DNA of 64,000 nucleotides from a virus (IMGVR_UViG_3300027971_000001); one strand, 5' to 3'; positions 13,270-47,060 are shown, counted from the stretch's first letter. The notes: a model not told the origin generated them from the sequence alone. Numbers and translations: made by a program.

Positions 13270-13281
13270 TAAATATATTAT

Positions 13282-13656
13282 ATGACAATTTACGTTGATT
13301 GCGGAACATATTACGAAACAGGCGATGCAGTGATTTGCCGCATGCGCAAAGATCAACCTTATTATCCTTTTAGTGGAGGTAGCATTACATGGGAACAATA
13401 TGTAAACCAACAAGTTGCACAAGGATTGGCTCAAGTTGTTCAACTAATCAATGATCCCACTCGTCTGGCCACTTACTGGAATGATGTAATCATCAAACGG
13501 AACGGTCTTCTTGTGGAAAGTGATTGGACACAGCTTCGCGACGTTTCCCTTGGTGATAATCCTGAATGGGTAAGTTATCGTCAGCAATTGCGTGATATTC
13601 CTCAGACATATGCCAGTGATCCTCGTTTGATTGTTTGGCCTGTTAAACCTAGCTAA
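13282..13656 (+). CDS. Tail fibre assembly chaperone (Phage_tail_APC-like)
   Basis: RNGLLVESDWTQLRD...WVSYRQQLRDIPQ...WPVKP is the characteristic signature; AATAAATA 6 nt upstream. Confidence 0.88.
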   Translation: MTIYVDCGTYYETGDAVICRMRKDQPYYPFSGGSITWEQYVNQQVAQGLAQVVQLINDPTRLATYWNDVIIKRNGLLVESDWTQLRDVSLGDNPEWVSYRQQLRDIPQTYASDPRLIVWPVKPS

Positions 13657-13711
13657 ATCATATATAAATTTTGATGTTTTTCGTTAAATAATATTATATT
13701 ATTTTAACGAT

Positions 13712-15064: not shown

Positions 15065-15072
15065 ATAAAATC

Positions 15073-31293: not shown

Positions 31294-32310
31294 TTATCCT
31301 ACCAACATTTGAACAGGGCTTGCATCACCCAAACCCGGAGCAGAACCTTCGTAAAGTCTCTTTTCCAAAGCTTCTTTTTCACGCAATCCTTGTTGCAACA
31401 TATCGTTATAATTCAACTGTCCACCTCCGAAAAGATTTACAGCTGTATACTTTCCACGAACATGACCAATGGATATTTTTGTAAGAGCCAATGAATACTG
31501 TTGAACCCATTGTTCTTGGATTAGTTGTTGAACAGGACGTTCCACATAACAATTAATGATACCATAAAATCTAGATCCAGATCCAGGTGTACGGGGTGGC
31601 GGAAACATCTGAAGATACTGTGTACGTTCATCAAATTTTACAGAACGAGGTATGCTCAATAGCTTATCACGATTTTTTAACCAATCTTTCAAAATATACC
31701 AACTGATAAGATCAAAACCATAATTTCCCATTGAATAACTGAAATAAGTTTGCTGGGCCAATGTTTGTTCAATTGTGAAAAGAGTGTTTACTCCATCAGA
31801 TGAACCTTCCTCAAAATATCTCAAATCAATAACCTTCCTGTATGTTTGAATCAAATAATCATAACTATTCATAATAGACAATTGGTCGGGGAGATTCCCT
31901 TTTGGATCTGCTTCAGATACTTGAAACGCCAAAGGATTTGTTGGATCACCAATTACCATGCTACCTATATTATACATGCTATTGATGCTGGTGTTGCGAA
32001 TATCGTAACGGAAATTAAAATCTGGAGTTAAACTGAACAATGTATCTAAACGAACACCCTTTCCGTCTTCATAAAGATCGCTGTCAAAAACAAGATATTC
32101 ATCGGTATAACCGGCAAATTTGCTGAACATTTCCACAGCAATTGCAATGTTCTCATAAAGTTGATCCTGATGTATTTCGACATTAACAAGTGGAGCACCT
32201 AATTGTCTGCTTATTCGAATACCAAGATCATTGAATGCTTGAATACGACTGTTTAAATTAGTACTATAAAATGTACTGACGTTTTGTGTTACTGTGCAAC
32301 TCAGGCTCAT
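31294..32310 (-). CDS. gp13: Neck protein
   Basis: RQLGAPLVNVEIHQDQL, WVQQYSLALTKISIG..RGKY..VNLFGGGQLN. Confidence 0.88.
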   Translation of the reverse strand: MSLSCTVTQNVSTFYSTNLNSRIQAFNDLGIRISRQLGAPLVNVEIHQDQLYENIAIAVEMFSKFAGYTDEYLVFDSDLYEDGKGVRLDTLFSLTPDFNFRYDIRNTSINSMYNIGSMVIGDPTNPLAFQVSEADPKGNLPDQLSIMNSYDYLIQTYRKVIDLRYFEEGSSDGVNTLFTIEQTLAQQTYFSYSMGNYGFDLISWYILKDWLKNRDKLLSIPRSVKFDERTQYLQMFPPPRTPGSGSRFYGIINCYVERPVQQLIQEQWVQQYSLALTKISIGHVRGKYTAVNLFGGGQLNYNDMLQQGLREKEALEKRLYEGSAPGLGDASPVQMLVG

Positions 32311-32311
32311 A

Positions 32312-32935
32312 TTAATTGTTACTGGTTATGGAAACCATAATGGTGGATTTATCTGCTGTTAGTCCTGTAAACATTACATAAAGGGCATTTACACGTTCAT
32401 GAAGGGCTGATACAGCGGCTTGTATGGATGAATAATTTAAATCTAAAGCCTGTATTCTTTGTTGATAATAGATATTAGGAGAAAGAATTGCACCAAATCC
32501 TACTGATGAAAGTACGGAAAGATAATTTCCACTGTTTCCAACAAGATTGTTATATGCTTCGCTCCAATAAGAACTGTTAACATTTGTAGTTGTATAAACG
32601 GATGACCAGCTTCCTGAAAGAATATTGACAGTCAAATATGTGCTTTGCCAATTGGAACTGAAACTTCGAACATGTGTATAAACGCTTTCCCATCTGGAAC
32701 TGTTTCCATAAACAGTGGTATAAACACTAACCCAATAACCACTGTTTGCCTGAAGAGTAACATAACCACTATACCAGTTTTCACTGGTACCTTGATCTTG
32801 TGTATAAATTATACCTTGAAATTTAGAAGACGGTCCAGCAATAGGATCGGTACCACTTTCCAAAATTCCCGGAGTGGGATTTGTATGGTGGGTGGATCGA
32901 TGAAGTTTTCCGTGAAAAGGATAATTGCCAGCCAT
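32312..32935 (-). CDS. Late protein with 14-residue Trp/Tyr coiled-coil repeats (fibre stalk-like)
   Basis: About 7 tandem NS(G/S)xWxS(V/T)Y(T/L)xV units; TATAAATA 5 nt upstream. Confidence 0.75.
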   Translation of the reverse strand: MAGNYPFHGKLHRSTHHTNPTPGILESGTDPIAGPSSKFQGIIYTQDQGTSENWYSGYVTLQANSGYWVSVYTTVYGNSSRWESVYTHVRSFSSNWQSTYLTVNILSGSWSSVYTTTNVNSSYWSEAYNNLVGNSGNYLSVLSSVGFGAILSPNIYYQQRIQALDLNYSSIQAAVSALHERVNALYVMFTGLTADKSTIMVSITSNN

Positions 32936-32940
32936 ATATT

Positions 32941-32948
32941 TATTTATA
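32941..32948 (-). promoter_or_regulatory. T4-type late promoter TATAAATA
   Basis: 5 nt before ATG 32935. Confidence 0.75.
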
Positions 32949-32950
32949 AA

Positions 32951-34711
32951 TTAATTGCATATTATACTGATTATAAATGCGCCGTCTCCTACTCCTTGCA
33001 TATCTGAACCAGCTTTAATTGTAATAATATTACATTCAGTCCGGAATAGCGGTATGGGGAAAGGAGTATCCCCTTGAATAACATTCAGAATTCCTAATTG
33101 TTGTAAATATAATTTATATAAACATCTGTTAATAGTGTCACTTTGATAATTTTCATTATTTCCTATAAAATTATTGCAATCAACATTTAAAGAAGGATCA
33201 GTCAAAACACCATCATCAATATAGATATTTTTTATAAATTTATAACTTTCATAAATATCCTGATTTGTCATCTGAATGTTTACGGCTGAAAGCGGCAAAT
33301 ATGGATCCAAATCAAATTTGAATCTCTGACGGGATTGATTCAAAAGAACATAATTATTGTTTATAAGTTTGCTTATGCTTTTGTTGAATGTAAGACTTTG
33401 TGAATATTCTTCATTTTTTATGTGTATTTGATCTTTTGAAAAAATATCAAAATCATAAGAATAAAGCATGTTATTGGTCGCATTAGGTTCAAGAAACCTG
33501 AAAAACTCGCCTGCCGAAAGGTTGGTTCCAATTGTTGTTTTTGAAAAAAGAAAAATGCTATCTCTATCTTCGTCCAAATACAAATCCAAAGCTTGCAAGC
33601 TATAATTTCGAATATTGTCTTTAGACAAATCAAATTTTCCAATCTTTGTTGTTGGACGGGAAAAATATTTTTTATAAAGAGATTTGTTTGTGAGAATATA
33701 AAAAATATTAGTATTATCTTTACTAAACAAATATTTTATTGAATATTCTCCGGTTTTTGTTTCTTCGGAAAAATCTACAACTTTGTATGAAGAATCAGAA
33801 ACATTTAGAATTATGATTTTATTTTCTTTGGCCAATAAAAATATATCGGTTATTCCTGTAAACTGATTTTTATGAAGTTTGATATCAACAATCGTATACA
33901 AAGAAAATAGATTTTTTAATATTAAAGAATATCTCCAATTCAATTGGTCGTCAAAAAACTTCAAACAAGAATTTCCGCTGTCCATTACAACTAGAGTTGA
34001 AAGATAAAGATCAGCAGCATAAGGTGTGTTGAATTCATTGTTGTCATATCGACCACCTTGACCACCTATGATTTTCTTCAAATATCGTTTATTGAATTTT
34101 ACATTTTCTCCTCCTATGAAACCTTCAACGTCATATAAAAGAACTTGGTTATTAACCGAATCTACCACGTAAAGATCATTTCCATTAAGAACCAAATCCG
34201 TTATGTTTCCATTTTTTAACTGTGTTTTTTCATCTATATAAATGCTTGAAAGAATAATATTAAATGAAGAATATTCTGTATCAAATTTTGTAAAAAATAA
34301 AGTTTGACCTTGAGATGCAATCAAAACAATGTTTTGACCATCTGTTGTTGGGGAAACAACAAAATCCTTAATATCATCTAATCCAGATAATCCTATTCCT
34401 GTTTGAAAGTTTCTGGCACTAGTATTTGGAACGGAAGTGGAATTCCATGTGGCTTTGGTTTTTCCTGAAATAACACCTAACCAAGATGTGTATGAATATG
34501 GAATTTGATTTGTTAAAATTTTTGTTCGAGAGTACAGATACAAAAGATTTTCATACAAATAATTAAAACGGATATTAATAGCCCCTGCAACGCTAAGTTC
34601 ATTGACAGGTATTTGAATTTTATCAAATACATACGGAAGAGAAATAAAATCTCCTACAACCCGATCAAAAATAAGATTTTCTTTTTGGAAAGATGAGTTT
34701 ATGGCTATCAT
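32951..34711 (-). CDS. Virion protein with NHL/beta-propeller-like repeats
   Basis: DLYVVDSVNNQVLLYD, FNTPYAAD, LVVMDSGNSCLKFFD; start 34711 gives an ATGA overlap. Confidence 0.7.
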   Translation of the reverse strand: MIAINSSFQKENLIFDRVVGDFISLPYVFDKIQIPVNELSVAGAINIRFNYLYENLLYLYSRTKILTNQIPYSYTSWLGVISGKTKATWNSTSVPNTSARNFQTGIGLSGLDDIKDFVVSPTTDGQNIVLIASQGQTLFFTKFDTEYSSFNIILSSIYIDEKTQLKNGNITDLVLNGNDLYVVDSVNNQVLLYDVEGFIGGENVKFNKRYLKKIIGGQGGRYDNNEFNTPYAADLYLSTLVVMDSGNSCLKFFDDQLNWRYSLILKNLFSLYTIVDIKLHKNQFTGITDIFLLAKENKIIILNVSDSSYKVVDFSEETKTGEYSIKYLFSKDNTNIFYILTNKSLYKKYFSRPTTKIGKFDLSKDNIRNYSLQALDLYLDEDRDSIFLFSKTTIGTNLSAGEFFRFLEPNATNNMLYSYDFDIFSKDQIHIKNEEYSQSLTFNKSISKLINNNYVLLNQSRQRFKFDLDPYLPLSAVNIQMTNQDIYESYKFIKNIYIDDGVLTDPSLNVDCNNFIGNNENYQSDTINRCLYKLYLQQLGILNVIQGDTPFPIPLFRTECNIITIKAGSDMQGVGDGAFIISIICN

Positions 34712-37700
34712 ATGTTTTCTCTCCAAACAATATTTTTAATTTGCGTCAAATAAGGAAAATTATTTAATATAATACTATTCAATTGTTTCTGTATGTATGC
34801 TTTTGCATTAGGATCTGTTATTTTTGAATTATTTATAGAAATATCAACAGCAGGAGACTTGTGGTAAGGAATCCTTTGTCTAAAAAATTTCTCAATTGTA
34901 TCTGTATAATTTCTATTTTCTGCCGGAAGATTCAACATTAAAGGTTGAATATTTTTGGAATATTTCTGAAGAAGGCGTATGGAATAATAATCTAAAGCTT
35001 TTGTAAAGAAAAATACATCCTTTATTTCAAGATTTTTTATTGTGAAAGCGTCACTTATTTTTAATTTCTCATATAAATTAATTCCAGCAAAATATTGTGT
35101 TGCTCCATAAGTGAATGGTTCACTTATGATTTGGCTTAAAGCATACTTTCCTTGATCAAAAGTTTTTGAATCAACAATTTGTCCGTCTACAAACAAAATA
35201 CAATTACCGTTAACAGAATCCAAAGTAAGAGCGAATTCATGATTTCCAAATTTTAGCTGGGAAGCATCAAATTTAAGATTCAATTCTTCCGGATTTTCAG
35301 AAGGATAAATGTTGGGAAGATTAATACGAACCGAAATTGTGTTTTTAGGATAATTCACATCTAAAATTTCATGATTGTAAAGAGAATTTGTGATAGGAGA
35401 TAACAAACATCCAGACAAAGCATAATTAAATGCTATAGGATTTTCATTAACTTGAAATGTTTTTGTATTAATTGAAGCTATCGTGTTTGTGGAAGAACAA
35501 ACGGCATAAATTGTTGTTGTATTTTCTCCTTTGATATATGATGACCCAAAATCACTAGCAACTACATTTTGTGCACTTGAAGGTAAACTGAAGGTTGTAA
35601 TGACAAATCCACCTGAATTGTGTACATAACATGTGGATTTATTATCAAAAATAAAGAAATTTTGATTATCATCTATTGTAAATGTCATAATATTTCCACT
35701 TGTGTTATAAAAACGTGTTTCAATATTATTAGTGCTTACATTCCATTCGAGAATTTCACCGTTTGATTTATAAAAAATTCTTACACCTTCACGAATCTCT
35801 GCATCAGTTCCATCTATAATATAGACTCCAGAACCTATCCGCTTTATGGATTGTGCGCTTACCATTGGAGTTGTTGAATAAAAACGAGTAAAATTGTTGT
35901 AACCTAATTCTTCAGTTCTTCGATTATATGAAACAAAATCTCCTTTAGGTGAAACAAGGAAAAATGTATATGTTTCATCAGAGAAATTGGAAATTGTAGA
36001 TGATAAAGGATTATATTGGGTGCTATCAAAAATTGTATTTTGTGAGTTTATTTGAAACAATTCACCAGTTTTATCCAACACAAAATAATCATCCAAACTT
36101 TCCAATTGAACAATATTAATTAGTGGATTATTAAATGTAATACTATCAATAAAACCAAATTCTTGATTGTAAATATACAATTTATTATCACTTATGATTC
36201 TAATAAATGGTGTAACGGATCTATCCGAATAAATTCCAAAACCTCTGTTTTTATAATTACCTATAATTTCATGGCCAAAAGGATTGTCGAAACTTTTGCT
36301 TGCTAAAGTAAACAAGAACGAAAAGCAATTATCAAATGATTTGCTATTAATCGTTTCATTAATTCCGTATTGACTTCCTGAAAATTTGTACACTCCATTT
36401 TCAGAAGCCAAAATAGTTCCATTTGTTTGTAAATATTGATCAATACCATTGAATAAAATGCTAGAATTATTTTTGTTTATGTATTCATCAATATCGTTTT
36501 TACCTATTCGGTAATAAGCATAAAGACAATATGGTTCAAAAGTCATTTGACTTTTTATATCAAAAATTTCCGTGGGTGTTGTTGCTTCGTTTGTTATACA
36601 ATCGTAATAGCTTTCATAACTGAAAACATCATTTGCTGAAAAAGCTGTTTGTCTGGTTGTTTTGTTAGGGAGAAAATATCTGTCATACCAAATTGGTCTT
36701 GTGGTAGGATCACAAGAACCGCTCAACCAAGAACAAAGCCACGTTCCATTAACTTCTCCGCGAGGATTTCCAAAGTTTGAAGTATCTTTGTAGTTTGAAA
36801 GTTTTTTCCATATTTTATCGGAGAACTCAGGTGTATCTGAATAAATTGCTCCGGATTCAGCTAATGATGAATCGTTTATATTAATAAAATTATATTCACC
36901 CATGTCTAAAGGGGTATGGAAATAACTTATTTTTCCAGGGGCAAACAGATATTCATTTATTTTACTCAAATAATTTTGAGAAAATTTTAAATTTCCTTTT
37001 TCTTGAAATGATCCAGTATTTAAAGAAACATAATTTCGCACTTGCTTATTTTCCGATACAAAAACATTTTCTGATTTTGGAGTAAGAGGATTTTTTTCTG
37101 TAAAGAAATTGTATGGTATTTCTGCAGAAGTTATGTTATTGAATTCAGAATGAAAAACAATTTGATTTTTAGTATTTTCGGATTTTGAACAATCAACATT
37201 AAGATTGTTTGTATCAAATTCTTTTGTGTATGAATACCAAAAAGAGGATAATGTAGAAATCAAATTAAATTTTATTGGAAGAATATTAAAAGTATTATCT
37301 ACTGTAAACTGAATATCACTTCCGCTAAGAGGTAAAAAAGTAAGAGATGATGATGATCGTGTTAATGTATAGACATTATTATTTTTTCTGTAAAAAAATG
37401 TTATACAGTTATTAATGTTATCAAAAATATATTCAAAAGCCTGTTGATAGAGACTGTTTGAATTGAATATGTCACTTGAGCCAGAAAGAAGATAAACATT
37501 ATTGTTTAAAAAGTTTAAATTTAGATAATATTTATTATTATAATATTCATGAGAAATTCTGCACAAATTGTTGGGAAGAAAATCTATTTCAAAATAGTAA
37601 TTAGGATTTTTTCCTCCAAAAAAATTATTTGTGGTAATATCCAAATAATTTGATGAAACTGTAGGATTGATAGACCAATATCTTTGAGATGATTCTTTTA

Positions 37701-37980
37701 TTGCATCTATACCGTTGCTTATGTATGTTACAAACCCATTTCCTTTTTGTGCTGGATTCATCAAAGAAAATGATTCTTCAAATTTAATTGAAGATGTCAA
37801 AACCATATTGGAATAATTGTTATTTTTTTGATCGTATGATTTTGAAAAAAATTCAGGAAAAGCAAAATTCATGCATGAATCACTGAAGATCTTTTGTTGA
37901 ACTGTGTCCAAATCCCTGTCTTGAACATAGGAAACTCCCATGTTCGACCAATTATTTTTATCAAAAACTCTGACAGGCAT
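34708..37980 (-). CDS. Large virion protein (about 1090 aa) with propeller and LamG-like segments
   Basis: HEFALTLDSVNGNCILFVDGQ is LamG-like; start 37980 lies 5 nt after AATAAATA. Confidence 0.7.
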   Translation of the reverse strand: MPVRVFDKNNWSNMGVSYVQDRDLDTVQQKIFSDSCMNFAFPEFFSKSYDQKNNNYSNMVLTSSIKFEESFSLMNPAQKGNGFVTYISNGIDAIKESSQRYWSINPTVSSNYLDITTNNFFGGKNPNYYFEIDFLPNNLCRISHEYYNNKYYLNLNFLNNNVYLLSGSSDIFNSNSLYQQAFEYIFDNINNCITFFYRKNNNVYTLTRSSSSLTFLPLSGSDIQFTVDNTFNILPIKFNLISTLSSFWYSYTKEFDTNNLNVDCSKSENTKNQIVFHSEFNNITSAEIPYNFFTEKNPLTPKSENVFVSENKQVRNYVSLNTGSFQEKGNLKFSQNYLSKINEYLFAPGKISYFHTPLDMGEYNFININDSSLAESGAIYSDTPEFSDKIWKKLSNYKDTSNFGNPRGEVNGTWLCSWLSGSCDPTTRPIWYDRYFLPNKTTRQTAFSANDVFSYESYYDCITNEATTPTEIFDIKSQMTFEPYCLYAYYRIGKNDIDEYINKNNSSILFNGIDQYLQTNGTILASENGVYKFSGSQYGINETINSKSFDNCFSFLFTLASKSFDNPFGHEIIGNYKNRGFGIYSDRSVTPFIRIISDNKLYIYNQEFGFIDSITFNNPLINIVQLESLDDYFVLDKTGELFQINSQNTIFDSTQYNPLSSTISNFSDETYTFFLVSPKGDFVSYNRRTEELGYNNFTRFYSTTPMVSAQSIKRIGSGVYIIDGTDAEIREGVRIFYKSNGEILEWNVSTNNIETRFYNTSGNIMTFTIDDNQNFFIFDNKSTCYVHNSGGFVITTFSLPSSAQNVVASDFGSSYIKGENTTTIYAVCSSTNTIASINTKTFQVNENPIAFNYALSGCLLSPITNSLYNHEILDVNYPKNTISVRINLPNIYPSENPEELNLKFDASQLKFGNHEFALTLDSVNGNCILFVDGQIVDSKTFDQGKYALSQIISEPFTYGATQYFAGINLYEKLKISDAFTIKNLEIKDVFFFTKALDYYSIRLLQKYSKNIQPLMLNLPAENRNYTDTIEKFFRQRIPYHKSPAVDISINNSKITDPNAKAYIQKQLNSIILNNFPYLTQIKNIVWRENI

Positions 37981-37991
37981 AAAATTATTTA

Positions 37992-38876
37992 TTAATATAT
38001 CGGGGCAACACAACTAATTGGAACCAAATAAGTTGAGTTGAATACATCAACTCCTATCATTATATCATTGTTTACAATTGTTATAAGGGCACAATATGCG
38101 GTTAATGGAGGTATATTTGGATATATTGGCTGAGTTGTTAAAGCAGGAACAATTGTAATTGCAAATTGAAGAGGTGGAAGTTCGGGGCGCACAATAACAG
38201 GAGGAATAAACAAATAATCACCTGTTCCCAAAACACCATAATTAATATCCAAAAGTTGTGAACCTTGCAAAGTTAGTAGATAATTTCTGTTATCATCCAA
38301 TAACTGATAATTCAAAATTTTATAATCTAAAATAGGATTGATTATGCTGGGTTGTGTTGCACTTAAATGAACAACAAATACATCCACATAAAAGTTTTCC
38401 CGATAACAGCTGATTATTGCTGTATGGGCAGTGATGAAATCTTCCCCGGTTTCATAAATTCCTGTAATCGAATCTAGTGTAGTAGAACTAGGATTTGTTA
38501 AATCTATGAATTTTTCAACATATTGATTGTTAATATCCGCTGTTATTTTTTGTATTTTATATAATGTTTGATCTACACCAGATAACGAAAATGTTATTTG
38601 AACAGGTGCTGTGAACAAAAATTCATCCTGTTCGTATCTGTGTATCACAATATTTTCAGATGCCGAAAATGTTGAAGTGTTTGTATAAGCAGATAATGGT
38701 AATGCAGAAAGCGATGGAAGTGCACTCAATGAACGGAAAGTTCCAGAACAAAGAACATTAGTATATGTAAAATTATATCCAAATATCGGATCACGATAAA
38801 CATAACCGTCAATTGTGCCGTAACTGACAAAATTTTCTCCCGCCGTCAAATAAATTGTTCCTGTGTTATATTTCAT
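37992..38876 (-). CDS. Hypothetical virion protein
   Basis: 294 aa beta-rich ORF in the structural block, with a Pro-rich linker and Cys-bracketed C-terminal module. Confidence 0.7.
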   Translation of the reverse strand: MKYNTGTIYLTAGENFVSYGTIDGYVYRDPIFGYNFTYTNVLCSGTFRSLSALPSLSALPLSAYTNTSTFSASENIVIHRYEQDEFLFTAPVQITFSLSGVDQTLYKIQKITADINNQYVEKFIDLTNPSSTTLDSITGIYETGEDFITAHTAIISCYRENFYVDVFVVHLSATQPSIINPILDYKILNYQLLDDNRNYLLTLQGSQLLDINYGVLGTGDYLFIPPVIVRPELPPLQFAITIVPALTTQPIYPNIPPLTAYCALITIVNNDIMIGVDVFNSTYLVPISCVAPIY

Positions 38877-38877
38877 T

Positions 38878-40797
38878 TTATATTCCTGTTAATGGACATA
38901 CCAAAGGACTTAAGATATCCAAACCATTGATTGAATATAATGGTATGCTGCTATCTACAATTTCTACTAATGCACAATATGAACTCAAAGGAACAACCGG
39001 AGGTTTCGGACATTGGATTGTCAAAACATATCCACTTAAATCTATTTTCTTCAAGAAAGAAACTGGCAATGGATTCAACAATTGTATGACACAAGGAGGA
39101 ACAACAGGTGCAGGAACATATGCAGGATCGCAATTTAAATTATAAACAGATATTCCATTTGTTGATCGTGCAGCCAGAATTTTACCTTTAATATCCATGT
39201 TAGATCCCAAACGAACATTAGGAGTTAGTGATATGGGTGGATATGTTTTTAACAATAATAAAGATTCATTAGATTCTGAATAGTCATAAATATCGATTAA
39301 TCCAGCATTTGAATTGAGCGAAACTGTATTTCCAGGACGGCTAATGCCTAATGTTGTGTCACTGATTGAAATGGCAGAACCATATTTTGCATCAGGATTA
39401 TCTCCTGCAGAAAGCTGAATGGAATATGACCATACGTTTGTGGTTTGATTTTTTGTAAAAACAAAAACAGCACCGTCAGAACTATATAAACAACCTTTAT
39501 AAGGGGCACTTATTGCGGCAAAATAATCACCCATTGCGATTGAATAACCAAATCCTTCAGAAGAATTTGATATGCCGGAAAGATAAAACACACTGCTATA
39601 ATTTCCTAAACCATCTTTTTCAAATATTTGTGCAGATCCATCGATATAAGATATGATACCTTGATTGTTTTTAAATTTAATATTTGTTGGAATTGAAGAA
39701 AGGGTTGTAATTGATGAATAGTAATTCCAATCGTAGTTGTTTCTTTTGTATATTTCTACAGATGAAAGAGTGGAAAGAAATACATAGTCATTGTCTATGC
39801 TTCCATGAAATCCAAATCCAGAAACATTATTTGAATATACAGTATATTCTTTTACAACATTTCTTCCTAAATTTCTATAAATGTCAATAGAATTATTGAG
39901 TGTGTTTCTTACAAGCAATTTATCATTTGAATTATCCAGGAAGTTTTCAATAATTGAAGCATCATAATTTATTGTTTGACGCTCATCATAAGGAGCGGTG
40001 CTTGAAGTGGTAAGAATATAATCATTAAAAGACTTGTTTCCTGATTTTTCAGAAAATAAATTATTAGAACCTAAAAACAATTTTGAAGTTTGACCAACAC
40101 TAAACACATTTGTTCGTATAAATTGCAAACAGGTGGATAAGGTTGCATCTAAAATATTGTCCACATTCTGTTCAAATCCGTAGCAATCAAATTCTTTAAT
40201 TTTAAAAACTGTTGTATCATCCGGAGAAATAAAATTACAGGCTATTCGATATGAAGTTTGTTTTCTTTTATCCAGATAGGTTTGAGCCAATGTTACAAAA
40301 TTATCTGGGGAAATCATTTTTTGAACTTTAACCAAACGGCCATGTTCTGTTAAAACAACACGAATTGTTGTATAAATTGCATTATTTTCAGTTGTATAAT
40401 TTTGACCCAATACAATATTGGAGAATGATGAAAGATTTTCAGTATAAGTTAAAAGAGGATAGTCATCAAATTCTGGACCCCTAATAGCTATTGTATTTGG
40501 ATTGTTTTTATAATCACCATCATTTCTTCCGTCACCTTTTTTGGAAAATTCTCCTGTAACGTCTAATCCAATACCTATATATGCACCTTTTAAACCCTCA
40601 TATCCTGTATATGGCGAATAACCTAATGATCCATTTATTCCCCCTCCATATGGTGAAGACAAAGAATCTTCATAAAATGCAATCGATATTCCTCCTGAAC
40701 AGGACGATACTGGATTAAAAATAGAAAAGGTCAACGATGTCGCAATATCATGGCGACTATCGAATGATTTTTCGTTATATATCCTATTGAATTGCAT
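38878..40797 (-). CDS. Virion protein: L-type lectin-like domain plus FG-GAP-like propeller
   Basis: GGISIAFY...GGGINGSLGY...IGIGLDVTGEFS...NTIAIRG; GFGYSIAM...ISAPY...GAVFVF and KYGSAISIS repeats. Confidence 0.7.
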   Translation of the reverse strand: MQFNRIYNEKSFDSRHDIATSLTFSIFNPVSSCSGGISIAFYEDSLSSPYGGGINGSLGYSPYTGYEGLKGAYIGIGLDVTGEFSKKGDGRNDGDYKNNPNTIAIRGPEFDDYPLLTYTENLSSFSNIVLGQNYTTENNAIYTTIRVVLTEHGRLVKVQKMISPDNFVTLAQTYLDKRKQTSYRIACNFISPDDTTVFKIKEFDCYGFEQNVDNILDATLSTCLQFIRTNVFSVGQTSKLFLGSNNLFSEKSGNKSFNDYILTTSSTAPYDERQTINYDASIIENFLDNSNDKLLVRNTLNNSIDIYRNLGRNVVKEYTVYSNNVSGFGFHGSIDNDYVFLSTLSSVEIYKRNNYDWNYYSSITTLSSIPTNIKFKNNQGIISYIDGSAQIFEKDGLGNYSSVFYLSGISNSSEGFGYSIAMGDYFAAISAPYKGCLYSSDGAVFVFTKNQTTNVWSYSIQLSAGDNPDAKYGSAISISDTTLGISRPGNTVSLNSNAGLIDIYDYSESNESLLLLKTYPPISLTPNVRLGSNMDIKGKILAARSTNGISVYNLNCDPAYVPAPVVPPCVIQLLNPLPVSFLKKIDLSGYVLTIQCPKPPVVPLSSYCALVEIVDSSIPLYSINGLDILSPLVCPLTGI

Positions 40798-40826
40798 ATA
40801 AATTATTTAATTGTAAATTTCCTTTG

Positions 40827-43601
40827 TCATCTTGGATCTATGTAAATCACATGTTGTCCACTGGCAACATAGGTTATTGAGAAGATATTGATCCCATCTT
40901 GGGCTGTAATAGAGTCATTAATTGTTGTAAAATAATGTTGATTTGATCCGGAGAAGTCATAAACCAGAGTTCCGTATACATCTCTTAAGTTTAATTTTGT
41001 ATTACCTGCAGAAATAGTGAATATATTTGTGATTGTAGAATCACAAACAATAAATGAAGAAACAGTGCTGCTTACTGTCAATGGCTGAGATGCTGCATAA
41101 TAATAGTTAAAAAACTCAGAAGAAGATGATGAACAAACCAAACTGTTAAAATCTTTTTGATTGGCAACGATTGATGAAGATAGTGATATATGTCTGACAG
41201 TTTGTTCTTTTATTCTATCATTATAATTTCTATCATAAATGAATCCACAAGGTTTAAATGATAAGAAATTATCTAGAGCCAGAGTATTAAAAGATCTTTT
41301 AAATTTGTAATTGTTAAGAATTGGTATGCCATTTTTATTGTAACTTTTTACCAATATACCCATTACCTGAGATTCATGACTAATGTTCATCAAACTTCTG
41401 TCATTCAATGAAAGATTGAAGTTTTCCGAACTTAAATTAACAATAAAAGAGCTTAAGCTTTGAATGTTTTCAATTATTGGATAAATTTTTGTAAAATTTA
41501 AACTTTGAATATTTGCTGCAAAAACTTTTGGATAAACTATTTTTTTGCTTGTGGATGAATTTTCCTGAAACAATGTTAAAAATGATAGAAATATATTATT
41601 ACTTTCATCATCATACCAAAAATTTGAATAATTTTCTATGTTAGAATCTGTATTATATTTCTTAAAGTATGTGTTTTTTGTATAAAAACCATTAAATGTG
41701 TTTGTGTCAAAATCAAAATTAATTTTGTCTAATACAATATAATTGGATGTTTCCAAAACAATTGTATTAAAAATCAATTCCATATCTATGATGGAATTTT
41801 CAAGTTCGTTTCTGACTATTGTTGGATATTTTATGAAAATTCCACTTAGAGCAGAACTTAAAGGTAAAACTTTCGTATCATCGTAGGATCTTACAAAAAC
41901 TTGTCCGGGTTGGAAATTCTGTTTCGCATAAAGAGAACATAACGAAGATGTGTTAGTGTCATACAATGATGTTGCTGATGGAAAACGAACATATGTTGAA
42001 ACTGCAGAATAACTATTTGTTAATGAATTTTTAAATAATCCATAATGATTACCAAAAATATCAGTTTTATATTTTGTTAGTATTCCTTTATTATAAAGAA
42101 GATATTTTTTTCTTTCATCCAATGGATAATAATCATCACCAGAGAATTCAAAAACGTCTCTGTTTCTCCAAATAATATTATCATTCCAAAAATCTTGATA
42201 GTCTGTTACTCTAGAAACGCCTTCATCACTATCTTCAGATATTTCAGTTTTTCCTGTATAAGCAAAGAATTTGTGAATTTTTGGTTCGGAATATATTTTT
42301 CCAAATGCATAATCATTAGACCAATCATAACGATTCCATTGCAAATCAACTTGATAATCTATTCCGCTTAATGTTTGATCGGATAGTGACAATCCAGAAG
42401 CGTTTGAGCCAACTTCAGGATCTGGAATTAAAATAACTTCTCCTGCAGACAAAAATCTAGAAAATGAATATTCTTTTTTATATGTGTTCCAGAATAAAAT
42501 TCCTAGATTATCTTTTGTGAAAAAGTTACCAAGATATTTTTCACGTTGAGCATATGTAATTTCAGGTGTATGTGCGACTGTTGGAAATCTTCTGTTTAAA
42601 ATATTTTGATATGGATATGTGGGAATCAATACATAACTGCTCAAAGGACTGAGAAGATATTGCCCTGATAATCCGACGAGTTTATTTCCCAAATTTCTTT
42701 CATACAATTTTTTATATTCATAAACATTTGTATTGGTCGGATCAGAATTATTATCATAATTTTGAAAGTCTCTAGAATCCAAATAAGAATAATTTGTTGT
42801 AGAAAGATTGAAATTTACAGTAAAATTAGTCAATCCCAGTTCTTTTAAAAAGAAAGGATATGATTCAATCGCTTCGATAATAGCAGCGTTAAGATTAAAA
42901 ATAGAAGTATCATCCACCAATGTGGAGTCTAAATTGAAAAATTCTTTTCGTTCAGGGTCTTGAACATCATAGGATTCATACTTAGATCCTGGTTCAATAT
43001 CAAAATAATACTGTTGTGTGTCATATGCATCATTGATTTGCACGTGAAAATCAGAAAGAACGGATGAAAGAGCAGGCAAACGAACACCAGTGGGTTCAAA
43101 ATCATTGTTTTGAAGTATGGAAACAATTGCTTTTTTAATTAATGTTTCAATTCCAAAATCACTTCCACGCAGATTTGATTGAATAACACCAGTGGTTAAT
43201 GTATCTCTTTTTTGTGCATAATATTGGCATATTTTTTTGATTTTTTTGGTAAAGAAAGGAATTGCAATATCTAAAGATTGATTATCATCAAAATTAATAT
43301 TAGATAAAAATCTTTTTTCGTCGGGAGTTGTATATTTTAAGCTTATTTCTTTTAATAAATTTATATATTGTAAACGGACAAAAGAAGTTTTATCAGATCT
43401 TGAAACATTATAATAATCAAACCATTCGTTTAGATATTTGTTATAAGATGAAATGTAACTGGCAGTATCTGTGCTTGAAATTTTTAGATTTTTAAGCCAA
43501 TCTATTAAACTATATGCTTGAGAAAAATCTCCTGGAACATCAGTATTGTCAGGATTTAATACTGAGTTGTATGGGATATAATTTTGTAAATTTGTCTCCA
43601 T
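40827..43601 (-). CDS. Large virion/baseplate-associated protein (924 aa)
   Basis: Long ORF co-oriented between the baseplate wedge genes and lectin proteins. Confidence 0.7.
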   Translation of the reverse strand: METNLQNYIPYNSVLNPDNTDVPGDFSQAYSLIDWLKNLKISSTDTASYISSYNKYLNEWFDYYNVSRSDKTSFVRLQYINLLKEISLKYTTPDEKRFLSNINFDDNQSLDIAIPFFTKKIKKICQYYAQKRDTLTTGVIQSNLRGSDFGIETLIKKAIVSILQNNDFEPTGVRLPALSSVLSDFHVQINDAYDTQQYYFDIEPGSKYESYDVQDPERKEFFNLDSTLVDDTSIFNLNAAIIEAIESYPFFLKELGLTNFTVNFNLSTTNYSYLDSRDFQNYDNNSDPTNTNVYEYKKLYERNLGNKLVGLSGQYLLSPLSSYVLIPTYPYQNILNRRFPTVAHTPEITYAQREKYLGNFFTKDNLGILFWNTYKKEYSFSRFLSAGEVILIPDPEVGSNASGLSLSDQTLSGIDYQVDLQWNRYDWSNDYAFGKIYSEPKIHKFFAYTGKTEISEDSDEGVSRVTDYQDFWNDNIIWRNRDVFEFSGDDYYPLDERKKYLLYNKGILTKYKTDIFGNHYGLFKNSLTNSYSAVSTYVRFPSATSLYDTNTSSLCSLYAKQNFQPGQVFVRSYDDTKVLPLSSALSGIFIKYPTIVRNELENSIIDMELIFNTIVLETSNYIVLDKINFDFDTNTFNGFYTKNTYFKKYNTDSNIENYSNFWYDDESNNIFLSFLTLFQENSSTSKKIVYPKVFAANIQSLNFTKIYPIIENIQSLSSFIVNLSSENFNLSLNDRSLMNISHESQVMGILVKSYNKNGIPILNNYKFKRSFNTLALDNFLSFKPCGFIYDRNYNDRIKEQTVRHISLSSSIVANQKDFNSLVCSSSSSEFFNYYYAASQPLTVSSTVSSFIVCDSTITNIFTISAGNTKLNLRDVYGTLVYDFSGSNQHYFTTINDSITAQDGINIFSITYVASGQHVIYIDPR

Positions 43602-43605
43602 AAAA

Positions 43606-46600
43606 TTAATTACCCGAACTTAGCAGTCCTAATCCTAATGATAATTGATAATTTATAAGATTATCTGCTATATTATTTGTATCAAACCAATCAGAATATG
43701 TGCTGATTGTTTGAGAAACTGTTGTTTTTTCACTATCCCAATCAATTAAATTATTATAAAATAAATTATTATTACCTTCATTATATTCAAAAACATCATA
43801 ATAACGTGAAACTTCAATTCCTCCGGTAACATCATCACCCAGAACAAGTGGCCATCCCCATGAAGTATTCACATCACTAAGATGAACAACCTGTGTTGAA
43901 CCGGATAAAAATCCATTTTGGGAAACACCATAATTTGTCAATATGCCATCAGAATAAACTTCACCGAATTTTTCATATAAAACAACTTTACCAGATGTAG
44001 GAACAGTTGAAGTGCTCCAGCTTAATTGTTTTCCAAGATTTTTTCCATAGTTAGGATTGGAAATGGTTTGTTTTTTGTCATAATTTGAATCAAAAAGATT
44101 TGGAGAACCTCTGAAGTAAGAAAGTTTCGTTCCAAGCAAATTAACTAATCTTTGCATATCTGGAGGAAATGGAAAATTATAATTTTGTAAATCCACACCT
44201 ATGAGTGATTCCATGCTTTGTAATGCTTCTAGTTCATTTGCATCCAAATCTGCATTATTTGAAACAAAGTTTGCTATTTTTTCATAGATTCTTTTACCCA
44301 AAGAATTTATAGCACTGTTTTTATTACCAACTATGGGCCCTAAAAATTGATCGAAAAGAACATTTTTGTTTAAAAGAGATTCTTGAAGCACGTATGATTT
44401 GATATTTCCTATAGCATCAAAATTTTCATTTATTTTAGCTAAACCATATCCACCACTAACAGGGTAAATGTTAAACGTGTTGCTTTGACCAGTAACTGTT
44501 CTTGTTCTTGTATTATAATAATATTTGTTTATCCACCGCATTCCTGTCCAATCACCATAAGCCCTTAAATTAGAAGGATCGACATCATCAGTGTTAATTC
44601 TGTTTACATCCACTGTGTTTAAAACTGTAAAAGAATTCAAAGGATACAAATACACACGTCGATCAAAATTATGAACAACCCACAGAATATTTTCAGTATC
44701 ACAAGCAATTGCATTTATACTTTGATATTCTGTTGTAAGATTTGTTCCACTTCCAACAGAAAATGTAGTGGTATCAGTTCCTGTTTTTACACGTAAAATA
44801 TCTTGTTTATTATAAGAAGCATATATATTCTGATCTTTATCAACAGCTAATGGTCCCAAACCGCTATAACCACTTAAAGGATAATTTTCCGAAAGATTAC
44901 CGGAATTGGATTCATATTTATAAAGAAAATCATTACGGTTGGTAATACTTGAATTGTTATTCAAATATGTCATCACAGTCATATAGAGATTATTATCTCG
45001 ATCTATTAACAATTGTTGCGGGCTGAATAATGTTGGGTATTCTTTTGCCCCTAAAAAGTTTCCATTTGGATCGTATTTGATTAGATATCCTTTTAAAGGA
45101 TTTGAATATGCTACCCAAATATTACTATCTAAATCTGTTTCAATGCATGATGGTAAAATAGTAGATTCATCAGCATAAATGCCACTCAAAGGACCGAAAC
45201 CGTAATTTAAAAATGATTCTATGGTAATTCCAGAAAATGCATCTATAGGTTCTCCACTAAATGAATGTAAAATTGAAAAATCAACATTAGGATATGTTGG
45301 ATAAGCTTCAGCATCAATATAACCTGTATCCCTTTGAATTCTTAAGCAAGAACCAGCTGTATATAATGTTACCCAAGCATTTGCCTGTCCGTCTAATGCG
45401 ATAGAAGAAGGTGTTGCACCTGAAAGAGATCCTTGGAAATTTTGATATATGACATTTCCATCTGGGTAAATTCTGGGTGCATTAGATAGATCTATATCAA
45501 AAATAATCTGCCCATTTTTCTTTAATTTTAAGATTCTATCCCGATCAGAATCTGCAAACCAAACAGCATCATCTTCAGAAGGACTTACTGCTATTGCAAA
45601 AGGATTTTTGAGGATTCCTGCAAAAACTGTAGGAGACGATTTTGTACCTGTTAATTGAAGAGAAATAGTTTCCTTACATGCATCATATTCCCTGAATTTA
45701 TTATATCTATAAATATTGGATGCAATATCTGCATTTGATGTTATTGAAATAGAATAAGAATCCAAACCTTGTCCCAACCAAGCATAAGGTGAATCTTTGG
45801 CAAAATATGCAGGATCATAAATTTTTACAGATGCAGTTAATGCCACATTTTCAACCGCATAAGGACTGTTCAAATAACCGGCATAAAATCCACCTGTTCG
45901 ATTTATATTTTTTATATTATTATTTTTGTAAAAATGTATTCCATCAATTACTTTTTGGGAACATACTGAAATTAAATCACATGTTAAATCAAAATAATCT
46001 GTGGATCTGTTAAAATTTAAAAGAGGGTATTGTTTGGTAGTATAATTTTGATTGTCTTTTAACTTAATGAAAAATGAAATTGGGTAATTTTGCCATTTTA
46101 TTTTATTAATATAAAATGATTCATCTGTATAGCCTTCTCCGTCAATTCCATTTGATGTAATGCTTAATGTTTGTGCTGGATTATATCTGATTTTAACTGG
46201 TGTTACGAGTGATGAATAATTTATATAAGGAAGTTTTGAAAAATTTTCTGTATAATTTGAATTTGGAATTTCATTTCTGGAAGGAAATAATGAGAGATCC
46301 AATGAGGCATAAAGAAAAATAGGCGTTTCAGATGTTAGATTTTTAGGATATTGATCAACATAGTAAATGGTTGTTGTTCCACTTGTTCCTGCCAACATCG
46401 ATCCTTCATATGGATATGATGATTCAACTATTTGATTGTTGGATATATAAACATAGATTGGATCAGCAGTTGTTACAGCTGAACTTAAGATGCCAAATCG
46501 GTTTCCAACTTTTTCAACAAAAAAGAAATAAGATTGTAAATGTGCCCATGGATCTTTTACATAATTTTCAAGTTGAAGATAATCCGATTTGCTTCCGCTT

Positions 46601-47052
46601 GCATAAAAATTAATTGTATATCCTGTGGCAGAGACGGTGGGAAGTGATTGCCAAGAATTATATCGTACTATTTCAATAGGATCAGAAACCTGTCCACTGT
46701 TATATGAAGCTATTTTTTCATCATTCAAATAATTAGAATGAATAAAGTCACCTACATAATTAACCGCAGTTACTTGAAAGGTTCGACATGCTTGAACTGT
46801 GTTTCCTGCACTAGTATATCCATAAAATGTGACATCATATACACCGGGCCATGTATAAGAGTGATTTGTACTTAAACTTGTGGAAATTGTCCCGTCCCCA
46901 AAATTCCAAAGACCCTTTTGATCGCTTAAGGAAAGATTATTTGAAGATAGCGATGCAACAAAAGTAAATGGGGTGACATCAAGAGTATAGGTGCTTAATG
47001 ACTCCAAACCTGTGAAGTTTGTTACACTTATGTTTATATAGGTGCATGTCAT
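43606..47052 (-). CDS. Baseplate wedge-associated protein (gp7 position) with PKD domain and beta-propeller
   Basis: WNFGDGTIS...HSYTWPGVYDVTF (PKD); repeated IALDGQANAWV / IETDLDSNIWV / LAVDKDQNIY blades; follows gp6. Confidence 0.7.
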   Translation of the reverse strand: MTCTYINISVTNFTGLESLSTYTLDVTPFTFVASLSSNNLSLSDQKGLWNFGDGTISTSLSTNHSYTWPGVYDVTFYGYTSAGNTVQACRTFQVTAVNYVGDFIHSNYLNDEKIASYNSGQVSDPIEIVRYNSWQSLPTVSATGYTINFYASGSKSDYLQLENYVKDPWAHLQSYFFFVEKVGNRFGILSSAVTTADPIYVYISNNQIVESSYPYEGSMLAGTSGTTTIYYVDQYPKNLTSETPIFLYASLDLSLFPSRNEIPNSNYTENFSKLPYINYSSLVTPVKIRYNPAQTLSITSNGIDGEGYTDESFYINKIKWQNYPISFFIKLKDNQNYTTKQYPLLNFNRSTDYFDLTCDLISVCSQKVIDGIHFYKNNNIKNINRTGGFYAGYLNSPYAVENVALTASVKIYDPAYFAKDSPYAWLGQGLDSYSISITSNADIASNIYRYNKFREYDACKETISLQLTGTKSSPTVFAGILKNPFAIAVSPSEDDAVWFADSDRDRILKLKKNGQIIFDIDLSNAPRIYPDGNVIYQNFQGSLSGATPSSIALDGQANAWVTLYTAGSCLRIQRDTGYIDAEAYPTYPNVDFSILHSFSGEPIDAFSGITIESFLNYGFGPLSGIYADESTILPSCIETDLDSNIWVAYSNPLKGYLIKYDPNGNFLGAKEYPTLFSPQQLLIDRDNNLYMTVMTYLNNNSSITNRNDFLYKYESNSGNLSENYPLSGYSGLGPLAVDKDQNIYASYNKQDILRVKTGTDTTTFSVGSGTNLTTEYQSINAIACDTENILWVVHNFDRRVYLYPLNSFTVLNTVDVNRINTDDVDPSNLRAYGDWTGMRWINKYYYNTRTRTVTGQSNTFNIYPVSGGYGLAKINENFDAIGNIKSYVLQESLLNKNVLFDQFLGPIVGNKNSAINSLGKRIYEKIANFVSNNADLDANELEALQSMESLIGVDLQNYNFPFPPDMQRLVNLLGTKLSYFRGSPNLFDSNYDKKQTISNPNYGKNLGKQLSWSTSTVPTSGKVVLYEKFGEVYSDGILTNYGVSQNGFLSGSTQVVHLSDVNTSWGWPLVLGDDVTGGIEVSRYYDVFEYNEGNNNLFYNNLIDWDSEKTTVSQTISTYSDWFDTNNIADNLINYQLSLGLGLLSSGN

Positions 47053-47060
47053 ATGCCATG

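What the first reader, a model, noticed from the sequence alone, without database searches (positions are those of the whole stretch)
32312..47052. L-S-(A/G/S) tripeptide saturates virion proteins but not replication enzymes: a possible glycosylation sequon
Seen: SLSALPSLSALPLSAY, FSLSG and HLSA in the 294-aa 37992 protein. PLSG, GLSG, PLSA, YLSG, QLSAG, WLSG, LLSG, ALSG and PLSS recur through 32951, 34708, 38878, 40827, 43606, the propeller N-termini, 26360, gp18 and gp23. I noticed essentially none in gp43, UvsX, gp41 or gp32. Inference: a short serine-centred motif under selection only in virion proteins, as expected for an O-glycosylation or other modification site. This would link to the phage GT and rhamnose enzyme and suggest a glycan-coated particle.
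Basis: partly seen in the sequence, partly recalled or inferred. Interest (0 to 1): 0.7.

Follow-up and report, generated by a model that had tools for sequence, protein, structure and literature searches.

The report
Leu-Ser-small tripeptide on outer tail proteins
Seven unrelated outer baseplate and tail-fibre proteins of this uncultured T4-like phage carry the ordered tripeptide Leu-Ser-(Ala/Gly/Ser) about five times more often than chance. The excess is kept by selection across a large phage clade, which fits a tag read by some enzyme (perhaps a sugar-adding one), but no modification has been shown.

Summary
The seven ORFs at 32312-47052 hold 42 LS[AGS] against 8.8 expected, and none of 5000 shuffles exceeded 21. 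LSG and LSS are the two most over-represented of all 8000 tripeptides in this block.

The contrast is not virion versus replication. Capsid, sheath, hub, gp6, gp25 and gp13-like proteins are at expectation (8 vs 7.2). Only the module in the T4 gp7-gp12 position is enriched.

- **Level:** the signal lies in the protein, not the DNA, because codons at the motif match background.
- **Specificity:** it depends on order and on residue (Ser far above Thr, Leu far above Ile).
- **Families:** it occurs in proteins that are not paralogues.
- **Relatives:** it recurs in relatives at about 30% identity and genome-wide in two long relatives.
- **Selection:** Leu, Ser and the small-residue class are conserved above background.
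- **Counter-example:** a marine sister clade has the same module almost without the motif, so the folds do not need it.

A tag read in trans, possibly a Ser O-glycosylation site, is my leading reading (about 0.4). A structural cap or turn is close behind.

The window's glycosyltransferase sits in the replication module, and the "rhamnose enzyme" call is weak.

Earlier notes of this scan report similar short Ser/Gly motifs on outer tail proteins of other phages.

The parts
43606..47052 (-). 1148-aa protein in the gp7 position, directly downstream of gp6. N-terminal PKD domain and propeller-like repeats. 7 LS[AGS] against 2.31 expected.
   Evidence: orthologues
40827..43601 (-). 924-aa protein with a helical N-terminal part and a beta-rich C-terminal part. 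10 LS[AGS] against 1.64 expected. Founder of a large family (585 representatives at 50% clustering).
38878..40797 (-). 639-aa protein with an N-terminal beta-sandwich and an FG-GAP_2-type beta-propeller. 8 LS[AGS] against 1.61 expected. Three of them lie at the ends of blade strands.
37992..38876 (-). 294-aa protein. 5 LS[AGS] against 0.36 expected, the highest density in the block.
38685..38732 (-). Tandem run of three LSA motifs (residues 49-64 of the 294-aa protein).
34708..38013 (-). 1101-aa orphan protein. 6 LS[AGS] against 1.41 expected.
32951..34726 (-). 591-aa orphan protein. 4 LS[AGS] against 0.86 expected.
32312..32935 (-). 207-aa Ser-rich protein, the last gene of the module. 2 LS[AGS] against 0.64 expected.
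47061..48899 (-). gp6-like baseplate wedge protein, the upstream boundary of the module. 0 LS[AGS] against 0.55 expected.
31294..32310 (-). gp13-like head-tail adaptor, the downstream boundary of the module. 0 LS[AGS] against 0.56 expected.
3996..4712 (+). GT2-like glycosyltransferase (PF13712) between uvsX and gp41. The only glycosyltransferase found conserved in all long relatives checked. Its substrate is unknown.
10570..11460 (+). SDR-type sugar epimerase/reductase, RmlD-like but far below the equivalog threshold.
11911..16389 (+). Three paralogous propeller proteins. 8 LS[AGS] against 2.6 expected, mostly two sites shared by paralogy.

Best explanation
**Shown.** L-S-[A/G/S] is an ordered, protein-level short motif. 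Purifying selection keeps it in the distal tail proteins (peripheral baseplate and some fibres) of a large clade of uncultured T4-like phages. It is absent from the capsid, sheath, tube, hub, inner baseplate and non-structural proteins.

**Inferred.** The motif is a tag that a trans-acting factor reads on outward-facing surfaces. The leading candidate is a cytoplasmic phage glycosyltransferase that puts a sugar on the serine before or during tail assembly. This would resemble the Ser-only, small-residue-after-Ser specificity of the autotransporter heptosyltransferases TibC/AAH.

In this reading Leu is a half-buried anchor kept from the ancestral fold. The Ser and the small residue after it occupy positions that are polar or charged in relatives lacking the motif. 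Some of the sites are instead old structural (hydrophobic)-[S/T]-G turns.

I give about 0.4 to 'tag read in trans'. Within that, about 0.25-0.3 goes to glycosylation specifically.
For: **Excess beyond composition and dipeptides.**
- 42 against 8.8 expected, and against a Markov-1 expectation of 19.4.
- LSG and LSS rank first and second of 8000 tripeptides.

**Order matters.** Other orders of L, S and [AGS] give only 0.9-2.5x, against 4.75x for the motif. PLS[AGS] is found 9 times against 0.3 expected.

**Residue specificity across 150 family representatives.**
- LS[AGS] 3.7x against LT[AGS] 1.3x.
- First position: L 3.7x, V 2.1x, I 1.2x, F 1.1x.
- Third position: A 5.6x, G 4.2x, S 2.6x.

**Not a DNA-level signal.** Codons at the motif match background, and both TCN and AGY serine codons are used.

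**Independent families.** The seven block proteins are not paralogues.

**Same module in relatives.**
- The excess recurs in relatives whose block proteins are about 30% identical.
- Genome-wide scans of a 127-kb relative and a complete 230-kb relative find it in the same module. The complete genome also shows it in a few fibre- or spike-like ORFs elsewhere.

**Selection on the motif as a class.**
- Leu and Ser are each conserved 89%, with flanks at 59-78%.
- The third residue toggles among A, G and S.

**Not a few inherited columns.** In the 924-aa protein's family the motif lies in 158 alignment columns. More than half of the occurrences are in columns shared by under 20% of the sequences.

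**Concentrated in the distal parts.** There is no excess in the N-terminal 170 helical residues (0.93x). The excess is 4.9-5.6x in the distal and variable C-terminal parts.

**The folds do not need it.**
- A marine sister clade with the same synteny and homologous proteins has only 1.1-2.0x. Its nearest IMG/VR relatives have 0.9-1.65x, against 3.4-5.9x in most other loci.
- At conserved motif columns the sister clade has N/E/D/Q/K/R in place of Ser and the small residue, while the hydrophobic first position is often kept.

**No single structural role.** The two AlphaFold models place the motifs in mixed contexts: strand ends, strand starts, helix starts and loops.

**Controls.** Baseplate and fibre proteins of T4 and cyanophage S-SM1 show no excess.

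**Precedents.**
- TibC modifies Ser but not Thr, at N-S-G-G and T-S-A-A (PMC4358343).
- A three-residue O-glycosylation motif exists in Bacteroidetes (PMC8550257).
Against: - No chemistry of any kind supports a modification, and no writer has been identified.
- The only glycosyltransferase conserved in all long motif-rich relatives (PF13712) lies in the replication module. In one relative it is flanked by QueC and an amidotransferase, which suggests a DNA or nucleotide role.
- The accessory glycosyltransferases vary between motif-rich genomes: GT2 at different places, GT1 and GT8 each in one genome, GT9 in none.
- No glycosyltransferase lies next to the module.
- Published readings of glycosyltransferases in related aquatic myophages favour host O-antigen or DNA modification (PMC7029224).
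- A conserved Leu next to the acceptor is unusual for a surface sequon.
- Some sites are ancient and structural. These include LSG[Y/I/V], which is conserved even in the motif-poor clade, blade-end positions of the FG-GAP_2 propeller, and repeat units of a fibre in a relative.
- Some outer proteins lack the motif: the tail-collar fibre at 19627-20781 (0 vs 0.74) and a 1019-aa fibre in the complete relative (1 vs 2.56).
Confidence: 0.4

Rival explanations
1. **Structural cap or turn motif.** Leu closes a strand or helix into the core. Ser caps the backbone with its hydroxyl. A small residue allows the chain to turn. This phage clade simply uses that solution often in its beta-rich outer tail proteins, and nothing reads or modifies the motif.
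For: - Many motifs sit at the boundaries of secondary-structure elements in both models.
- Some sites are conserved across the whole family, including the motif-poor clade: LSG at column 1598 and (V/I)-[S/T]-G-x-L at residue 320 of the 924-aa protein.
- Two sites in the propeller resemble, from my recollection of the FG-GAP_2 blade consensus (not checked here), its L-[S/T]-[A/G] position (family match).
- In a relative's fibre the motif is part of internal repeats.
- VSG is also enriched (112 vs 38).
- Hydrophobic residues are enriched at -3 and +3.
Against: - The contexts are mixed (helix starts, strand ends, strand starts, loops), so there is no single geometry.
- Ala, not Gly, is the most enriched third residue.
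- Thr, Ile and Phe are poor substitutes, although they suit beta structure.
- Homologous proteins of the sister clade fold without the motif and carry charged residues there.
- The excess is shared by seven non-homologous families yet absent from other beta-rich tail proteins of the same phage, and from T4 and S-SM1 baseplate proteins.
Confidence: 0.3
2. **Docking motif for assembly.** The tripeptide is a short linear motif recognised, without covalent change, by a dedicated tail-fibre or baseplate chaperone, or by a neighbouring subunit. That would explain why only co-assembling proteins of one module carry it.
For: - The excess is module-specific, in proteins that lie in the T4 gp7-gp12 position and presumably assemble together.
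- The motif is a conserved island within less conserved flanks.
Against: - Five to fourteen copies per protein, with rapid positional turnover, is unusual for a docking site.
- No candidate chaperone was identified.
- The motif also appears in fibre-like proteins encoded far from the module in a complete relative.
Confidence: 0.1
3. **Artefact.** The excess reflects Ser/Leu-rich composition, local low complexity, a DNA-level word, or post-hoc choice of a pattern.
For: - The block is Ser-rich and lower in GC (0.30) than its surroundings.
- Other orders of the same residues are mildly enriched (0.9-2.5x in the block, 1.1-2.1x in the family), so some local clustering of composition exists.
Against: - No per-protein shuffle comes near the observed count.
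- The Markov-1 control is still exceeded.
- An unbiased scan of all tripeptides puts LSG and LSS on top in the block, and LSA on top in the 150-member family.
- Codon use at the motif matches background.
- The excess is replicated in independent genomes.
Confidence: 0.03

Closest known systems
Autotransporter heptosyltransferases TibC/AAH acting on TibA and AIDA-I (PMC4358343)
   Same: - A cytoplasmic enzyme modifies many serines of a folded, beta-rich surface protein.
- Serine is modified and threonine is not.
- The mapped sites are followed by a small residue (N-S-G-G and T-S-A-A).
- This parallels the Ser-over-Thr bias and the A/G/S preference found here.
   Different: - The residue before Ser is Asn or Thr there, and Leu here.
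- The substrates there are repeats of one beta-helix, whereas here they are seven unrelated proteins.
- A search with the heptosyltransferase family PF01075 (GT9) found nothing in three complete motif-rich relatives.
- No modification has been shown here.
[quoted passage not shown]
   Same: A three-residue, Ser-centred sequon defined by the residues on both sides, found on many unrelated outward-facing proteins.
   Different: - Asp precedes the acceptor there. Here Asp is depleted at the position before Leu (0.3x), and DS[AGS] is itself under-represented (0.59x).
- Thr is accepted there but barely enriched here.
- From my own knowledge, that system acts in the periplasm with an oligosaccharyltransferase. 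Phage tail proteins assemble in the cytoplasm.
Virion glycosylation of mycobacteriophages by phage-encoded glycosyltransferases (Freeman et al. 2023, known to me only through its citation in PMC12582341)
   Same: Phage-encoded glycosyltransferases decorate virion proteins. This shows that glycan-coated tailed phages exist.
   Different: - From my own recollection, the targets there are the capsid and tail-tube subunits. The paper itself could not be read.
- Here the capsid, sheath and tube are at expectation and the baseplate periphery is enriched.
- I know of no comparable ordered tripeptide sequon reported there.
Host-recognition clusters with glycosyltransferases in aquatic T4-like myophages (PMC7029224)
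   Same: Uncultured aquatic T4-like phages carry glycosyltransferases among or near their tail-fibre genes. In the complete relative G008, two GT2 genes lie just upstream of two motif-enriched ORFs.
   Different: The authors read these enzymes as modifiers of host O-antigen or of DNA, not of the virion. They report no motif.

Membership tests
Bacteroidetes-type O-glycosylation sequon D-(S/T)-(A/I/L/V/M/T) | Asp immediately before the acceptor Ser/Thr | tested here: not met
   The residue before Ser is Leu by definition of the motif. DS[AGS] is under-represented in the family (0.59x).
Bacteroidetes-type O-glycosylation sequon D-(S/T)-(A/I/L/V/M/T) | Ser and Thr both serve as acceptor | tested here: not met
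   LS[AGS] is 3.7x enriched against 1.3x for LT[AGS].
BAHT-type (TibC/AAH) serine glycosylation | Ser-only acceptor followed by a small residue | tested here: met
   The sequence statistics agree with the sites mapped in PMC4358343. This is a resemblance in specificity only.
BAHT-type (TibC/AAH) serine glycosylation | A GT9-like heptosyltransferase encoded with the substrate | tested here: not met
   PF01075 found nothing in three complete and two partial motif-rich relatives. The Pfam and PHROGs scans of window ORFs named no such enzyme.
Glycosylated phage virion (any sequon) | A covalent glycan on virion proteins | not testable with these tools
   This needs mass spectrometry or glycan staining of particles or of co-expressed proteins.
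Glycosylated phage virion (any sequon) | Presence of the motif tracks presence of a writer enzyme across lineages | tested here: inconclusive
   - The PF13712 glycosyltransferase is present in every long motif-rich record.
- The complete genomes of the motif-poor marine clade could not be searched.
- No glycosyltransferase homologue with their contig lengths appears among the 240 rows listed, of 391 hits reported in the two searches.
RmlD (dTDP-4-dehydrorhamnose reductase), for the ORF at 10570-11460 | Score above the equivalog cut-off of TIGR01214 | tested here: not met
   69.3 bits against a cut-off of 224. Only family-level SDR/RmlD_sub_bind matches were found.
T4 gp7-gp12 baseplate periphery and short fibres, for the seven block ORFs | Position between gp6 and gp13 | tested here: met
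   gp25 and gp6 lie upstream and a gp13-like gene lies downstream. T4 has the same order.
T4 gp7-gp12 baseplate periphery and short fibres, for the seven block ORFs | Sequence or fold similarity to T4 gp7, gp8, gp9, gp10, gp11 or gp12 | tested here: not met
   - No PHROG match, and no Pfam match apart from PKD.
- No match among PDB sequences with the family profile of the 924-aa protein.
- Foldseek returns only generic propellers.

The most novel reading that the evidence does not exclude
A large clade of uncultured aquatic T4-like phages encodes a sequon, L-S-[A/G/S], on the outward-facing parts of its baseplate and fibre proteins. A conserved phage glycosyltransferase O-glycosylates the serine, so that the host-contacting end of the tail is sugar-coated. 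The PF13712 enzyme is the only glycosyltransferase found in all motif-rich genomes checked. A marine sister clade has lost, or never gained, the system.
Probability: 0.25. Interest if true: 0.85.

Novelty: new variant of a known kind. Interest (0 to 1): 0.6.

Why it matters
If the motif is a modification site, it would be, as far as I know, the first sequence-defined sequon for glycosylation of a phage tail. Glycan-coated receptor-binding machinery could then be predicted from sequence alone in abundant uncultured phages. That would bear on host recognition, resistance to proteases and grazing, and phage engineering.

Even if the motif is purely structural, the finding has value. A three-residue code shared by seven unrelated families, yet dispensable in homologues of a sister clade, marks which proteins and which domains face outward in a baseplate that has no recognisable homologue in T4.

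Earlier notes of this scan describe comparable short Ser/Gly motifs on outer tail proteins of other phages. The phenomenon may therefore be general and would merit one decisive experiment.

Tried and rejected
**Explanations tested and rejected**
- *DNA-level word or codon bias.* Codon usage at the 42 motifs equals the block background, and no 9-mer recurs more than twice.
- *Shared repeat domain or paralogy among the seven proteins.* All-against-all BLASTP finds only one weak C-terminal similarity, E = 0.003.
- *General property of T4-like baseplate or fibre proteins.* T4 gp6-wac, T4 gp34-37 and the S-SM1 baseplate block are all at expectation.
- *Helix N-cap or hydrophobic-staple box.* No Glu or Asp at the expected positions, and LSD, LSE and LSP are depleted.
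- *Lipobox or signal-peptidase site.* Considered because L-[AS]-[GA] matches the first three lipobox positions, but Cys is not enriched after the motif.
- *Sulfatase Ser-to-formylglycine motif S-x-[PA]-x-R.* No Arg enrichment at the required position.

**Searches that found nothing**
- Block DNA and the 1148-aa protein against cultured phages.
- The window's glycosyltransferase against cultured phages.
- PDB sequences with the glycosyltransferase or with the family profile of the 924-aa protein.
- The ESM Atlas for the 294-aa protein.

**Steps that did not resolve the question**
- Low-scoring members of the 924-aa protein's family are mostly scattered on the tree (14 changes against 15.3 in shuffles). 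One small marine clade is the exception, and I followed it up.
- I could not test whether that clade lacks the glycosyltransferase. Its 223-232-kb contigs are not searchable, a close-relative scan of the viral contigs found nothing, and the contigs end just past the module.
- The first maximum-likelihood tree run timed out, so FastTree was used instead.
- No complex prediction was run, because an enzyme with its substrate is rarely informative in that test.


Full report
**What the window is**

The window comes from a deep-branching T4-like myophage. Its major capsid protein is only about 33% identical to cyanophage gp23, and no cultured phage holds the block or the glycosyltransferase.

PHROGs and Pfam give this map:
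- **Plus strand:** gp43, UvsX, a GT2-like enzyme (PF13712, 3996-4712), gp41, gp32, an RmlD-like SDR (10570-11460), three paralogous propeller proteins, and several lysins.
- **Minus strand:** a tail-collar fibre, gp5, gp23, gp21, a head-completion protein, a gp13-like adaptor (31294-32310), then seven ORFs (32312-47052). These are followed by gp6 (47061-48899), gp25, gp44, the tape-measure protein, gp27 and gp18.

The seven ORFs have no family match apart from a PKD domain. They occupy the place that gp7 to gp12 and wac hold in T4.

All quoted strings are present. With per-protein composition as the null, the seven ORFs hold 42 LS[AGS] against 8.8 expected. In 5000 shuffles the mean was 8.8, the standard deviation 2.9 and the maximum 21. 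A first-order Markov expectation is 19.4, which is still exceeded at p = 6e-6.

The pattern was not cherry-picked:
- LS is the most over-represented dipeptide of the block (75 vs 44).
- Among all 8000 tripeptides, LSG (16 vs 2.5) and LSS (18 vs 4.7) rank first and second, PLS third and LSA sixth.

The stated scope is wrong, however:

| Protein set | Observed | Expected |
|---|---|---|
| Seven block ORFs | 42 | 8.8 |
| Fifteen other structural proteins | 8 | 7.2 |
| Remaining proteins | 6 | 8.0 |
| Three propeller paralogues | 8 | 2.6 |

The propeller count comes mostly from two sites shared by paralogy.

**What kind of signal is it?**

- *Protein level.* It is not a DNA word. Leu, Ser and third-position codons at the motif follow the block's background. 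Both TCN and AGY serine codons are used, and no 9-mer recurs more than twice.
- *Ordered.* The other five orders of L, S and [AGS] reach only 0.9-2.5x against 4.75x for the motif. All nine PLS in the block are followed by A, G or S (9 vs 0.3).
- *Residue-specific.* In 150 representatives of the 924-aa protein's family, LS[AGS] is 3.7x and LT[AGS] 1.3x. The first position prefers L (3.7x) over V (2.1x), I (1.2x) and F (1.1x). The third prefers A (5.6x), G (4.2x) and S (2.6x).
- *Not inherited through a shared domain.* The seven proteins show no significant similarity to each other.

**Relatives**

Loci anchored on gp6 and on the 924-aa protein gave orthologues at 69-81% identity. A second tier has block proteins about 30% identical. 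In every one, the ORFs downstream of gp6 are enriched and the upstream ORFs are not.

Two long relatives were scanned genome-wide without prior choice of ORFs:
- **G002 (127 kb).** The enriched ORFs lie almost entirely between gp6 and the gp13-like gene, about 39 observed against about 10 expected. The rest of the record gives 27 against 33.
- **G008 (complete, 230 kb).** The same module is picked out, plus a few fibre- or spike-like ORFs elsewhere.

The 924-aa protein founds a family of 585 representatives at 50% clustering. Over the best 150 of them the motif is pooled at 739 against 199 expected, and LSA is the single most over-represented tripeptide.

In a 70-sequence alignment the 452 occurrences fall in 158 columns. 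Of these occurrences, 254 lie in columns shared by fewer than 20% of the sequences.

Along the protein, the N-terminal 170 helical residues show no excess (0.93x). The distal part and the variable C-terminal extensions show 4.9-5.6x.

**Selection**

Against orthologues at 69-81% identity:
- Motif Leu is conserved 89% of the time, against 78% for other Leu (p = 0.0015).
- Motif Ser is conserved 89%, against 68% for other Ser (p = 7e-9).
- The third residue is no better conserved in identity (74% vs 72%). It stays within A/G/S 95% of the time, against 81% (p = 1e-6).
- Overall, 117 of 152 motif instances are retained.

The flanking positions are at or below the mean conservation of 0.75. The orthologues are not independent of each other, so these p-values are indicative only.

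**A sister clade without the motif**

Members of the family with low scores are mostly scattered on the tree. One small, well-supported clade stands out.

Its contigs are marine according to their record names. They carry the same synteny: gp44, gp25, gp6, a PKD-bearing protein in the gp7 position, then the homologue of the 924-aa protein. Yet the module scores only 1.1-2.0x.

The IMG/VR loci nearest this clade score 0.9-1.65x. Three loci score about 2.2-2.3x, six score 2.6-2.9x, and the other 30 score 3.4-5.9x.

At columns where the motif is conserved elsewhere, this clade has residues such as N, E, D, Q, K and R in place of Ser and the small residue. It often keeps a hydrophobic residue in place of Leu. 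A few sites are shared by both clades and look like old structural turns.

The folds therefore do not require the motif, and the Ser position is probably solvent-exposed. Exposure could not be computed directly.

**Structure**

Two AlphaFold models were made.
- *The 639-aa protein* (mean pLDDT 71) has an N-terminal beta-sandwich and a beta-propeller. Its relatives carry FG-GAP_2.
- *The 924-aa protein* (mean pLDDT 75) has a helical N-terminal part and a beta-rich C-terminal part. It has no convincing structural neighbour.

The 18 motifs in the two models sit at strand ends, strand starts, helix starts, loops and low-confidence tails. That is no single geometry.

The PF13712 glycosyltransferase is real (47.8 bits against a cut-off of 27). 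It is present in every long relative checked, including three complete genomes. It always lies in the replication module. In one relative it is directly preceded by an amidotransferase-like gene, with QueC two genes further upstream. Another relative carries QueF. A role in DNA modification is therefore at least as likely as virion glycosylation.

The RmlD-like protein scores far below the equivalog cut-off.

Other glycosyltransferase families vary between motif-rich genomes, and GT9 is absent from the three complete ones. If a single writer exists, PF13712 is the only conserved candidate seen.

Whether the motif-poor clade lacks it could not be settled.

**Conclusion**

- **Tag read in trans (about 0.4).** Several findings fit such a tag best: order and residue specificity, selection on the motif as a class, positional turnover, and convergence in unrelated families. 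So do restriction to outward-facing domains and dispensability in a sister clade. Ser O-glycosylation is the most concrete candidate. It parallels the Ser-only TibC/AAH enzymes (PMC4358343) and the three-residue Bacteroidetes sequon (PMC8550257).
- **Structural cap or turn (about 0.3).** This explains part of the sites and cannot be excluded for the rest.
- **Direct evidence.** Nothing here shows a modification.

Earlier notes of this scan report similar short motifs on outer tail proteins of other phages. I treat these as leads, not as support.

Noticed in passing
L148:6603-12025 (a relative's 226,760-bp contig): In this relative the PF13712 glycosyltransferase is directly preceded by an amidotransferase-like gene, with QueC two genes further upstream, between uvsX and gp41. 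The complete relative G008 carries QueF. This hints at 7-deazaguanine DNA modification in the lineage, and at a DNA-related role for the glycosyltransferase.
   Followed up: partly
L057:5851-21869 (marine sister clade): The motif-poor module instead carries very many Thr-Pro repeats: TPT 73 vs 4.8 expected and PTP 55 vs 3.8. These look like long TP linkers between domains.
   Followed up: no
window 37992-38876 and 38878-40797: The C-terminal roughly 50 residues of the 294-aa and 639-aa proteins are weakly similar (BLASTP E = 0.003). This agrees with other readers' notes of a shared Cys-bracketed C-terminal module.
   Followed up: partly
G008 89981-94177 (L136:9981-14177): This 1398-aa spike-like protein has internal repeats that resemble adhesin head repeats. 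Each repeat carries LSA, LSG or LSS at fixed places (14 vs 2.1 expected).
   Followed up: partly
window 32000-48000: The seven-gene block has GC 0.29-0.31, against 0.35-0.39 in the head and replication genes nearby.
   Followed up: no
window 40827-43601: The 924-aa protein founds a very large, unnamed family (585 representatives at 50% clustering). It has a conserved N-terminal part of about 525 residues and highly variable C-terminal extensions, up to about 1800 residues in total length. No PDB, Pfam or PHROG match was found.
   Followed up: partly
G008 181476-197789: Two GT2-family genes lie immediately upstream of two mildly motif-enriched large ORFs (813 and 2179 aa). One of these matches a protease PHROG.
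   Followed up: no
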